Virus record (IMG/VR): IMGVR_UViG_2529292715_000006
DNA: 33,113 bases
Reading direction: 5' to 3' (one strand)
DNA from: a virus
Taxonomy: Duplodnaviria; Heunggongvirae; Uroviricota; Caudoviricetes
Made by a program: the position numbers and the translations under genes. Shown here piece by piece: positions 4,692 to 5,130 of the stretch (its first letter is position 1; the number at the start of each line of letters is the position of its first letter). The notes under the pieces were generated by a model that was given only the letters and a program-made list of their open reading frames with translations, searched no databases and was not told the origin of the DNA.

Positions 4692-4937
4692 ATGACTTTT
4701 GATGAAAAAGAACTTGATAATGCAATTAATAAAATCATCGTAACGTCGCTCTTTTCCTGTCTCAGCGACACTCAGCAGAAACAGTTCTACGAATCGGCTT
4801 TCAACATGATCGAGCGTTGTTGTTTCTGCGATGCCGACGAGTTACCTGAAAAAATCAGGAAACAGTTGGCTGATGCTCTTCGAGTGCGACTTTCTGACCA
4901 ATTTTCTGAAATGTGCTCTCCGAATTTGGACAAATAG
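4692..4937 (+). CDS. Hypothetical small acidic protein (81 aa)
   Basis: ATG 4692 preceded by AGGA; coding-like codon pattern; convergent with, and overlapping, the 3' end of the minus-strand ORF 4855-5130. Confidence 0.5.
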   Translation: MTFDEKELDNAINKIIVTSLFSCLSDTQQKQFYESAFNMIERCCFCDADELPEKIRKQLADALRVRLSDQFSEMCSPNLDK

Positions 4938-5130
4938 AAAAAGGCCATTTCCATTCAGGGTCTGATGGAAATACTTCAGCCTGTTCCAAAGCACGGCGTA
5001 AAGAGAACACAACTCCAGCCATAATCTGATGTTTCCCATTGGTCCAGCTATCGCCGCTCTGATCTACAGGGGCGGCTATGTCGTATGACCAAACGACTTC
5101 ACAGTTATTGTTTAAAATCTGGACTTTCAT
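4855..5130 (-). CDS. Hypothetical protein (91 aa), first gene downstream of the putative PL promoter
   Basis: ATG 5128-5130 (MKVQILNNN...) with AGGTG ~8 nt upstream; not Arg-rich, so not an obvious N-type antiterminator. Confidence 0.45.
   Translation of the reverse strand: MKVQILNNNCEVVWSYDIAAPVDQSGDSWTNGKHQIMAGVVFSLRRALEQAEVFPSDPEWKWPFSICPNSESTFQKIGQKVALEEHQPTVS

What the first reader, a model, noticed from the sequence alone, without database searches (positions are those of the whole stretch)
4692..5130. Convergent small genes overlapping by ~80 nt at their 3' ends next to the immunity region
Plus-strand ORF 4692-4937 (81 aa, acidic, good SD) and minus-strand ORF 4855-5130 (91 aa, good SD, first gene after the PL-like promoter) both look coding but overlap tail to tail. 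The overlap also contains an 8-bp stem hairpin (4947-4954 with 4965-4972). Either one ORF is mis-called at its 3' end, or this is a genuine antisense-overlapping pair, which would give built-in transcriptional interference. That arrangement is seen in some toxin-antitoxin and exclusion loci.
Basis: seen in the sequence. Interest (0 to 1): 0.45.

Follow-up and report, generated by a model that had tools for sequence, protein, structure and literature searches.

The report
Two real prophage genes overlapping tail-to-tail
Two small prophage genes on opposite strands, next to the repressor gene, really do share their 3' ends, and about 45 shared bases are conserved as code for both proteins; this suggests, but does not prove, that only one gene is on at a time.

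Summary
ORF 4692-4937 (+, 81 aa, acidic) and ORF 4855-5130 (-, 91 aa, SfV orf33 family) overlap by 83 nt. The minus gene is the first gene behind a strong PL-type promoter. The window is an SfV/e14-like lambdoid prophage of E. coli/Shigella.

Both ORFs are genuine genes. The pair is kept colinear, without indels, in eight lineages from Escherichia, Salmonella, Klebsiella and Yersinia, and a ninth keeps it with small indels. Each gene shows a clear coding signature outside the overlap. Inside the overlap, 45 nt (4872-4916) show no wobble relaxation in either frame (P<5e-5 each), and rare CGA codons are preserved, so this stretch is truly dual-coding. Longer minus-ORF tails in relatives (122 or 162 aa) are unconstrained run-on.

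The 8-bp hairpin exists but lies 10 nt outside the overlap. It is absent from relatives and is not significant.

The pair occupies a hypervariable accessory slot. At least 20 different cassettes sit there, and many have the same convergent design, including e14 ymfI/ymfJ. No toxin-antitoxin or defence homology was found.

The likely mechanism is inferred, not shown: the plus gene is on in the lysogen, the minus gene comes on at induction, and convergent transcription enforces the switch. The protein functions are unknown.

The parts
4692..4937 (+). Plus gene: 81-aa acidic protein (phrog_3311), predicted three-helix bundle with a conserved RCCxC motif. It is transcribed against the PL operon. 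It is not annotated in SfV or by PGAP.
   Evidence: ORF. phrog_3311, E 1.2e-55. Homologues of 75-82 aa in Klebsiella, Salmonella, Yersinia and further lineages. pN/pS 0.24-0.29 over codons 1-54. Identity by codon position [0.67, 0.78, 0.47]. AF2 pLDDT 83. Absent from the annotations.
4855..5130 (-). Minus gene: 91-aa protein of the SfV orf33 family (phrog_3195). It is the first gene of the PL (early-left) transcript.
   Evidence: ORF. phrog_3195, E 3.8e-65. Annotated as SfV orf33 and as WP_021563905.1. Codons 1-64 have pN/pS 0.27. Identity by minus codon position is pos1 0.71, pos2 0.80, pos3 0.48. Remote homologues at 45-66% identity.
4855..4937 (.). ORF overlap, 83 nt, tail to tail. Minus codon position 3 faces plus position 2, and minus position 2 faces plus position 3.
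   Evidence: Coordinates. Frame relation.
4872..4916 (.). Dual-constrained core of the overlap. It covers plus codons 61-75 (ALRxRL..E) and minus codons ~72-87 (FQKxGxx(V/I)ALE).
   Evidence: Identity [0.73, 0.76, 0.70] at the three codon positions. Plus third positions score 0.695 against 0.469 background; minus third positions score 0.76 against 0.484; both P<5e-5. The rare CGA codons are kept. No conserved RNA structure.
4917..4937 (.). Junction. The last 7 plus codons (75-81, MCSPNLDK; this plus-ORF end is absent or different in most relatives) lie opposite minus codons 65-71, which carry the coding signature here.
   Evidence: Identity [0.68, 0.32, 0.61], so the relaxed position is minus position 3. 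The plus ORF stops at codon 75-77 in six of the eight lineages.
4947..4972 (.). 8-bp A/T-rich hairpin with a 10-nt loop. It lies inside the minus gene, 10 nt past the plus stop. Specific to this clade and probably incidental.
5257..5284 (-). PL-type promoter, TTGACA-16-CATAAT, overlapped by repeated ATGTACCC operator-like motifs.
   Evidence: Sequence.
5173..5244 (-). Conserved structured leader RNA at the 5' end of the PL transcript. It forms the right boundary of the variable slot.
   Evidence: CM R1 scores 93.6 bits. 9 of 13 pairs show compensatory changes across 32 copies. Found behind several unrelated promoter/operator (immunity) contexts. No Rfam family.
4636..4684 (+). Conserved left boundary and 5' region of the plus gene. 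It contains hairpin ACCAC..GTGGT (4636-4655), an extended -10-like TGGTATCCT (4652-4660), and a second hairpin CCTTTT/AAAAGG (4658-4663 with 4678-4683) that pairs with the Shine-Dalgarno.
   Evidence: Conserved ahead of 13 different anti-PL genes, with a covarying second stem. Promoter function is inferred only; the two-hexamer scan does not call it.
4389..4604 (-). STnc100/PasD-like prophage sRNA element with a terminal hairpin plus U-run, immediately downstream of the cassette in the PL direction.
   Evidence: Rfam RF02076, 39.6 bits, E 1.4e-6, below the gathering score of 47. The family is discussed in bioRxiv 10.64898/2026.05.13.724894.
5324..5998 (-). ymfK-like CI/LexA-family repressor (Peptidase_S24), with its terminator at 5293-5312.

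Best explanation
This is a genuine antiparallel overlapping pair of small protein-coding genes. Together they form an accessory cassette in the early-left (PL) operon of an SfV/e14-type lambdoid prophage.

Shown:
- Both genes are conserved as proteins.
- They are kept together, colinear and without indels, in eight lineages of Enterobacterales, and in a ninth with small indels.
- Their 3' ends share 83 nt here, and 45 nt (4872-4916) are constrained in both reading frames.
- The minus gene sits directly behind the PL promoter and a conserved leader RNA.
- The cassette lies in a slot, bounded by conserved elements, that holds many unrelated cassettes of the same convergent design.

Inferred:
- PL is held off by the ymfK-like repressor in the lysogen. 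The plus gene, reading against the operon from signals in the conserved left flank, would then be the one expressed in the lysogen.
- On SOS induction, PL transcription makes the minus protein and must run antisense through the whole plus gene. Polymerase collision and sense-antisense RNA pairing would then shut the plus gene off, as in an excludon.
- The protein functions are unknown. The most likely kind is a lysogen-expressed accessory factor paired with an early-lytic partner that acts with or against it.
For: Both genes are real:
- A cassette about 68% identical in nucleotides keeps both ORFs.
- The plus gene has pN 0.22 against pS 0.74. Minus codons 1-64 have pN 0.18 against pS 0.86.
- Six to eight lineages give pN/pS of 0.24-0.29 for each gene.
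- 51 of 52 unique IMG/VR alleles keep both ORFs intact.

Dual coding:
- Identity by codon position is [0.67, 0.78, 0.47] in the plus-only part and [0.71, 0.48, 0.80] in the minus-only part.
- It is [0.73, 0.76, 0.70] across 4872-4916, and resampling gives P<5e-5 for both frames.
- The motif CTT CGA GNG CGA keeps the rare CGA codon. Where plus Arg changes to Leu it goes CGA to CTA; in one of the two cases this is synonymous in the minus frame (Leu CTC to CTA).
- No conserved RNA fold is present there.

Pairing:
- The pair is intact in Yersinia, Salmonella, K. michiganensis and three more distant loci.

Context:
- PL promoter and leader RNA.
- 22 cassette clusters lie between the two boundaries. 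At least 10 have a PL-direction ORF plus a convergent ORF.
- Such convergent pairs are annotated in e14, and in phage Kati and Salmonella phage 118970_sal3; in SfII only the anti-PL gene is annotated.

Analogue:
- ymfI-ymfJ is listed as a convergent excludon from RNA-seq (PMC12288877).
- ymfJ is induced late in the SOS response, and YmfJ protein is detected (PMC11002266).
Against: - No expression data exist for this pair.
- The plus-gene promoter is only a conserved extended -10-like motif, which the two-hexamer scan does not call.
- That motif overlaps the 5' arm of a covarying hairpin. This is hard to reconcile with a start site just downstream of it.
- No terminator was found for either transcript.
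- In the overlap, pN/pS is uninformative: about 1.0-1.2 for the minus tail, against 1.7-2.0 in antisense controls.
- One lineage (L305) keeps the minus-family gene with a YmfI-like partner and only a remnant of the plus gene, so the pairing is not obligatory.
- Neither protein matches any family of known function or any known fold.
- The minus-protein model is unusable, with pLDDT 49.
Confidence: 0.6

Rival explanations
1. Only one real gene end lies in the overlap. The other ORF simply runs on until the next chance stop, so the overlap has no coding significance in one of the two frames.
For: - The minus ORF's stop moves: 91 aa here, 122 aa in four lineages, 162 aa in one.
- Recoding simulations show that such open antisense frames are expected by chance, P 0.06-0.76.
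- Beyond minus codon ~88 only the plus-frame signature is seen, [0.66, 0.73, 0.45].
- The plus ORF's last 5-6 codons here are absent from most relatives.
Against: - The 45 nt at 4872-4916 lack wobble relaxation in both frames, P<5e-5 each.
- The adjacent 21 nt carry the minus-frame signature although they lie inside the plus ORF.
- The minus-frame motif (V/I)ALE is invariant or nearly so. Plus residues vary through changes that are silent in the minus frame.
Confidence: 0.12
2. The pair is a toxin-antitoxin, abortive-infection or exclusion module. One protein, made in the lysogen, neutralises or is neutralised by the other, made from PL.
For: - The two genes are co-inherited across wide divergence.
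- The cassette sits beside the immunity region, in a slot that exchanges accessory cassettes.
- The geometry favours opposite expression states.
Against: - Pfam, NCBIfam and PADLOC give no significant hit.
- The genes are convergent rather than an operon, so this is not type II architecture.
- Both products are conserved soluble acidic proteins, with a maximum 19-residue hydropathy of 0.8-0.9. This fits neither a type I toxin nor an antisense RNA antitoxin.
- L305 has lost the plus gene but kept the minus family gene.
Confidence: 0.15
3. The conserved 45 nt form a cis-acting nucleic-acid element rather than dual code. Candidates are a terminator, an RNase III site formed by sense-antisense pairing, or a recombination site.
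For: - This is the nucleotide-level conservation peak of the cassette: 0.82 mean identity at 4872-4892, against about 0.6-0.7 elsewhere.
- Plus-frame pS drops to 0.23-0.29 there.
Against: - There is no conserved secondary structure on either strand. Alifold gives -2.5 and -3.6 kcal/mol, and single-sequence z-scores are mostly near zero.
- Sense-antisense pairing needs no sequence conservation.
- The substitutions that do occur fit amino-acid conservation in both frames.
Confidence: 0.1
4. The hairpin at 4947-4972 is a terminator, for PL transcripts or bidirectional, that separates the two genes.
For: It is a perfect 8-bp stem, followed on the minus strand by GGCCTTTTTCTATTT.
Against: - It lies inside the conserved core of the minus ORF.
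- It has only 2 G-C pairs and a 10-nt loop, and the scan does not call it.
- Its z-scores are -1.2 and -1.9.
- It is absent from all other lineages. The conserved TGGCCTTTT there encodes the conserved W-P-F.
Confidence: 0.04

Closest known systems
e14 prophage ymfI / ymfJ of E. coli K-12 (b1143 / b1144)
   Same: - Same slot, with the same left and right flanking sequences and a homologous (ymfK-family) repressor gene next door.
- Same convergent design, with a 63-nt ORF overlap.
- ymfJ, like the minus gene here, is the first PL gene and is induced late in the SOS response.
- The pair is listed as a convergent excludon.
   Different: - The proteins are unrelated to those here. They fall in different PHROGs, and BLAST matches only the flanks.
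- The YmfI family model is 89 aa against 113 aa in K-12, so that overlap may be mostly run-on.
- Dual constraint was not tested for e14.
Excludons (convergent or divergent genes with overlapping transcripts and mutually exclusive expression)
   Same: The genes lie on opposite strands and their transcripts must overlap, because the ORFs themselves do. One gene is under a repressor-controlled promoter.
   Different: Classical excludons overlap in untranslated regions, whereas here the coding regions overlap. Reciprocal expression has not been measured.
Lambda oop RNA against the cII 3' end, and the P22 immI sar antisense RNA (from my own knowledge of the lambdoid literature)
   Same: Convergent transcription next to an immunity region, used to set a lysis-lysogeny-dependent expression state.
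   Different: In those cases the antisense partner is a short non-coding RNA. Here both partners are conserved proteins.
Morons: accessory genes inserted in lambdoid prophages, often with their own expression signals
   Same: The cassette is present in some related phages and absent from others at one fixed site. Its products are small proteins of unknown function, and one gene faces against the operon.
   Different: The unit is a two-gene convergent cassette with shared coding sequence. A dedicated promoter and terminator have not been demonstrated.
Antiparallel overlapping protein-coding genes reported in enterobacteria
   Same: Two proteins are read from opposite strands of the same DNA.
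   Different: The overlap is only terminal, about 45-66 nt under constraint. It is supported by comparative evidence from eight lineages, not by expression data.

Membership tests
SfV orf33 family (phrog_3195) | Full-length sequence match to the family profile | tested here: met
   E 3.8e-65, residues 1-91 on profile positions 8-98. 100% identical to SfV orf33 from the second ATG.
phrog_3311 (plus ORF family) | Full-length sequence match to the family profile | tested here: met
   E 1.2e-55, residues 1-81 of 81. 100% identical to an unannotated ORF in SfV.
Antiparallel overlapping coding genes | Both ORFs conserved and intact in diverged homologues | tested here: met
   Eight colinear lineages plus L303.
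Antiparallel overlapping coding genes | Purifying constraint in both frames within the overlap | tested here: met
   4872-4916: wobble positions of both frames are conserved (0.695 and 0.76 against 0.47-0.48 background, P<5e-5). This holds for only 45 of the 83 nt.
Antiparallel overlapping coding genes | Both products translated through the overlap | not testable with these tools
   Needs ribosome profiling or mass spectrometry.
Excludon | Overlapping transcripts from opposite strands | tested here: inconclusive
   The ORF overlap implies it, but no transcript ends were mapped. The e14 analogue is flagged from RNA-seq.
Excludon | Mutually exclusive expression of the two genes | not testable with these tools
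   Needs strand-specific RNA-seq with and without induction.
Type II toxin-antitoxin | Two co-directional, co-transcribed genes | tested here: not met
   The genes are convergent.
Type II toxin-antitoxin | Homology to a known toxin or antitoxin family | tested here: not met
   Pfam, NCBIfam and PADLOC give nothing significant. No fold match.
Type I toxin-antitoxin | Small hydrophobic toxin plus a non-coding antisense RNA antitoxin | tested here: not met
   Both products are soluble and acidic, with GRAVY about -0.4 and no transmembrane-like window. Both are under protein-level selection.
Toxin-antitoxin (any type) | Toxicity of one product and rescue by the other | not testable with these tools
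   Needs expression assays.
Moron / accessory cassette | Variable presence at a fixed site among related phages | tested here: met
   22 cassette clusters lie between the conserved leader and the flank. In ST64B the slot is nearly empty.
Moron / accessory cassette | Own promoter and terminator | tested here: inconclusive
   A conserved extended -10-like TGGTATCCT lies in the flank. The scan does not call it, and no terminator was found.
Known anti-phage defence systems (PADLOC) | Match to a defence-system protein model | tested here: not met
   The only hit is SspC at E 0.035 over 24 residues, which is noise.

The most novel reading that the evidence does not exclude
The slot between the PL leader RNA and the conserved left flank may be a dedicated exchange site for two-gene 'switch' cassettes. 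Each cassette would pair a lysogen-expressed factor (for example superinfection exclusion or defence), read against PL, with an early-lytic partner read from PL that relieves or redirects it for the prophage's own growth. The shared 3' coding sequence and convergent transcription would enforce the either-or state. The orf33-family pair here would be one such cassette, and the first with demonstrable antiparallel dual coding.
Probability: 0.2. Interest if true: 0.7.

Novelty: new member of a known kind. Interest (0 to 1): 0.45.

Why it matters
Well-supported cases of two proteins read from opposite strands of the same bacterial or phage DNA are, to my knowledge, few and often disputed. This one rests on a clean comparative signal across genera and would be easy to test.

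It also shows how annotation fails on such pairs:
- PGAP and the original SfV annotation omit the plus gene.
- In some relatives (e.g. L005) gene callers pick the 122-aa run-on ORF and omit the conserved 76-aa gene.

The pair is also one cassette among many of like design at a fixed, recognisable site beside the immunity region of a large group of enterobacterial prophages. The site can be found by two conserved boundary elements. If the cassettes are lysogeny/lysis-switched accessory modules, this site is a convenient place to look for new prophage-encoded functions.

Tried and rejected
1. A scan of genome contigs with the plus-protein alignment found nothing, because there is one genome per species and the E. 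coli representative evidently lacks this cassette.
2. The first IMG/VR scan returned only 99-100% identical copies, which were useless for divergence analysis.
3. Pfam, NCBIfam and PADLOC searches of both proteins, and of YmfI/YmfJ, found no function.
4. The AF2 model of the minus protein has pLDDT 49, so it was not searched. The plus-protein model (pLDDT 83) has no match in PDB or BFVD at E<0.8.
5. My own interim conclusion was that the minus tail is pure run-on. It rested on pN/pS of about 1 and on the moving stop. I revised it when eight lineages and position-wise identity showed dual constraint in 4872-4916. pN/pS is not interpretable in a dual-coding stretch.
6. The hairpin as terminator was rejected.
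7. A conserved RNA structure in the overlap core was rejected.
8. The leader RNA as a homologue of HK022 put was rejected for now: covariance model R1 finds nothing in HK022 23-36 kb. A functional analogy remains possible.
9. Large repeat proteins hit by the minus core (P0063, P0067, P0068) are beta-propeller or low-complexity noise, not relatives.
10. The tblastn 'homologue' in SfII (35% identity) is only the retained first 15 codons of orf33 followed by a stop and a different cassette.

Full report
**Setting**

The window is an SfV/e14-type lambdoid prophage of E. coli or Shigella.
- The region 4400-5400 is 99.8% identical to prophages in many E. coli genomes. 340 of 5426 complete genomes carry at least 80% of it.
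- Both ORFs are 100% identical to Shigella phage SfV.
- To the right lie a ymfK-like CI/LexA-family repressor (5324-5998, minus; Peptidase_S24) and a cro-like gene.
- To the left lie the yfdP/Q/R/S/T-type early-left genes, with an IS1 inserted in yfdR.

**The observation**

- The + ORF 4692-4937 (81 aa, pI 4.6) and the - ORF 4855-5130 (91 aa) are as described. Both have good Shine-Dalgarno sequences, and they overlap by 83 nt.
- A TTGACA-16-CATAAT promoter (11 of 12 matches) lies at 5284-5257 on the minus strand, directly after the repressor gene's terminator. The minus gene is therefore the first gene of the PL transcript.
- The true start is 5130. Diverged homologues all begin MKVQ(I/V), and PGAP aa. 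SfV's orf33 used an upstream ATG without a Shine-Dalgarno.
- The hairpin at 4947-4972 exists but lies outside the overlap. It is weak and not conserved.

**Are both ORFs genes?**

Word-indexed protein searches found mostly near-identical E. coli copies. One 64%-identical relative of the minus protein led to a different prophage backbone. There the whole 439-nt cassette is colinear at about 68% nucleotide identity, and both ORFs are kept.

Further lineages came from several sources:
- IMG/VR.
- A protein search with the diverged plus protein, which found copies in Klebsiella, Salmonella and Yersinia.
- An exhaustive HMMER search with the minus core.

This gave eight colinear lineages. A ninth (L303) has small indels. 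A tenth (L305) keeps the minus-family gene but has a YmfI-like convergent partner and only a remnant of the plus gene.

Outside the overlap each gene shows textbook purifying selection:
- The plus gene has pN/pS of 0.24-0.29.
- Minus codons 1-64 have pN/pS of 0.27.
- Among 52 unique alleles of the window type, both ORFs are intact in all but one.

**The overlap itself**

My first reading was that the minus ORF merely runs on into the antisense of the plus gene. Three results pointed that way:
- Its stop moves: 91, 122 or 162 aa.
- Its tail has pN/pS of about 1.
- Simulations that recode the plus protein synonymously show the antisense frame stays open that far by chance, P 0.06-0.76.

Position-wise conservation in eight lineages changed this view. 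In each triplet below the positions are plus codon positions 1, 2 and 3. Plus position 2 is minus position 3, and plus position 3 is minus position 2.

| Region | Window coordinates | Identity [1, 2, 3] | Reading |
|---|---|---|---|
| Plus codons 1-60 | 4692-4871 | [0.67, 0.78, 0.47] | Plus-frame signature |
| Plus codons 25-60 alone (antisense to the long minus tails of relatives) | 4764-4871 | [0.66, 0.73, 0.45] | Plus-frame signature only; those tails are run-on |
| Dual core | 4872-4916 | [0.73, 0.76, 0.70] | No relaxed position in either frame |
| Junction | 4917-4937 | [0.68, 0.32, 0.61] | Minus-frame signature, although inside the plus ORF here |
| Minus core (codons 1-64) | 4938-5130 | [0.71, 0.48, 0.80] | Minus-frame signature |

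- Resampling gives P<5e-5 for the excess conservation of plus third positions, and likewise for minus third positions, in 4872-4916.
- A concrete sign is CTT CGA GNG CGA. The rare Arg codon CGA is kept at both sites in nearly all lineages, and its third base is the second base of a minus-frame Leu or Val/Ile codon.
- Where plus Arg becomes Leu the change is CGA to CTA. This keeps that base, and in one case (L302) leaves the minus Leu unchanged.
- The variable plus residue (V/E/T) always ends in G. This keeps the minus Ala, while the facing base varies silently in the minus frame.
- No conserved RNA structure exists there.

The minus protein's conserved part therefore runs to about residue 87 (...FQKxGxx(V/I)ALE). 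The plus protein's conserved part runs to about residue 75. The two share about 45 nt of doubly constrained code.

**Surroundings**

The same flanks enclose unrelated cassettes elsewhere:
- e14 of K-12 has ymfI (+) and ymfJ (-), overlapping by 63 nt.
- SfII has another convergent pair overlapping by 39 nt, preceded by a 15-codon remnant of orf33.
- Phage Kati has a pair overlapping by 29 nt, and Salmonella phage 118970_sal3 has one overlapping by 38 nt. Other phages differ again, and ST64B has an almost empty slot.

A census of 271 loci retrieved through the leader's invariant core gave 22 cassette clusters. At least ten have a PL-direction ORF followed by a convergent ORF that starts just inside the left flank.

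The right boundary is a 72-nt structured RNA at the start of the PL transcript (5244-5173).
- It has an outer stem, a GGC/GCC mini-hairpin and a 5-bp stem.
- 9 of 13 pairs show compensatory changes across 32 diverse copies.
- It follows several unrelated promoter/operator (immunity) contexts, and it is not in Rfam.
- It is not detectably related to HK022 put, which it resembles in size and position (PMC9378689).

The left boundary has three parts: hairpin ACCAC..GTGGT, a TGGTATCCT extended -10-like motif, and a second hairpin whose 3' arm is, or abuts, the Shine-Dalgarno of the anti-PL gene.
- The second stem covaries across 13 different cassettes.
- The boundary travels with anti-PL genes even in prophages that lack the leader.
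- Just beyond it lies an STnc100/PasD-like sRNA element, 39.6 bits, below Rfam's threshold.

**Mechanism**

Shown: two conserved proteins, convergent, sharing code; the minus gene is under PL; the plus gene is embedded antisense in the PL operon.

Inferred:
- With PL repressed in the lysogen, the plus gene can be expressed.
- After repressor cleavage, PL transcription makes the minus protein and runs antisense across the plus gene, silencing it by collision and RNA pairing.
- Any plus transcript has no evident terminator before it crosses the whole minus gene, so interference would be mutual.
- The e14 analogue behaves consistently. ymfJ is induced late in the SOS response and its protein is seen, and ymfI-ymfJ is called a convergent excludon from RNA-seq.

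Function is open:
- The plus protein is a predicted three-helix bundle (pLDDT 83) with invariant R-C-C-x-C.
- It has no structural neighbours.
- The minus protein could not be modelled.

**Comparison with known systems, and novelty**

It works like an excludon or convergent accessory cassette, and it is an instance of terminal antiparallel gene overlap.
- It fails the architectural and homology tests for type I and type II toxin-antitoxin systems and for known defence systems. Toxicity and rescue remain untested.
- Both proteins are already in databases as hypothetical proteins, and the e14 counterpart's overlap is annotated.
- To my knowledge three points are new: the evidence for dual coding, the recognition that the plus gene is real though often unannotated, and the description of the bounded slot with recurrent convergent cassettes.
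- I rate it a new member of a known kind, of moderate interest.

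Noticed in passing
window 5173-5244 (minus strand); also L002 6108-6180, L005 2525-2596, L298 2460-2531, L296 1852-1923: This is a 72-nt structured RNA at the 5' end of PL transcripts, found behind several unrelated promoter/operator (immunity) contexts in phages of Escherichia, Salmonella, Klebsiella, Yersinia, Pantoea, Pectobacterium and others. 9 of 13 pairs show compensatory changes. It is not in Rfam, and the covariance model finds no match in HK022. It resembles put in size and position, so RNA-mediated antitermination is worth testing. 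In Yersinia it lies downstream of the gene pair, not at the transcript start.
   Followed up: partly
window 4389-4604 (minus strand): An STnc100 (RF02076)/PasD-like prophage sRNA match scores 39.6 bits (E 1.4e-6), below the gathering score of 47, and ends in a hairpin plus U-run near 4390-4440. PGAP annotates a frameshifted hypothetical pseudogene over the same stretch in a near-identical genome (L001 3870-4180). That call may be wrong.
   Followed up: partly
window 4636-4684 (+ strand); same element in L002, L004, L005, L171, L174, L296, L298, L300, L302, L304, L305: A conserved two-hairpin element lies ahead of every anti-PL gene, whatever the gene. It has ACCAC..GTGGT, then TAT, then a stem that covaries (CCTTTT/AAAAGG, CCTTC/GAAGG, CCTTAC/GTAAGG, CTTGG/CCAAG) and includes or abuts the Shine-Dalgarno. 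It could be a translational occlusion device, an insulator against read-through, or a processing site on the PL-sense RNA. The strand on which it acts is unresolved.
   Followed up: partly
cassette clusters 1, 2, 3, 8, 9, 11 (e.g. L030, L040, L022, L171, L173, L276): Several alternative cassettes begin with a 65-127-aa PL-direction ORF. Its motif (CSFCG...K.(I/V)AKG....AICSECV) looks, from memory, like the ClpX N-terminal zinc-binding domain. No family search was run on it.
   Followed up: no
L305 1501-2123: An orf33-family gene (132 aa) is paired with a YmfI-like convergent gene (92 aa). Between them is a remnant of the plus-family gene's last ~24 codons. This is direct evidence that PL-direction and anti-PL modules recombine within the overlap.
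   Followed up: partly
L004 (SfII) 2501-2548: SfII keeps the first 15 codons of orf33 (MKVQILNNNCEVVWA), followed by a stop and a different cassette. This is a mosaic junction inside the coding sequence.
   Followed up: yes
L002 (K-12 e14) 5498-5839: K-12 YmfI is 113 aa, but the NCBIfam YmfI_phage model is 89 aa and the PHROG is 94 aa. The family-conserved part ends where ymfJ's stop lies, so the K-12 ymfI/ymfJ ORF overlap may be largely run-on.
   Followed up: no
L005, L296, L298, L300: In L005 gene callers report the 122-aa run-on ORF and omit the conserved 76-aa gene on the other strand. In L296, L298 and L300 it is the reverse: the plus-family gene is called and the minus ORF is left uncalled. 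Both are annotation artefacts of this overlap.
   Followed up: yes
window ~1792-2518: An IS1 element (InsA/InsB ORFs) interrupts the yfdR-like 5'-deoxynucleotidase gene of the prophage. In the intact relative L001, yfdR is 537 bp.
   Followed up: no
window 3892-4572 (minus strand): The mechanical 226-aa ORF is a fusion artefact. Only its last ~120 aa are YfdP. The upstream part overlies the STnc100-like element.
   Followed up: no
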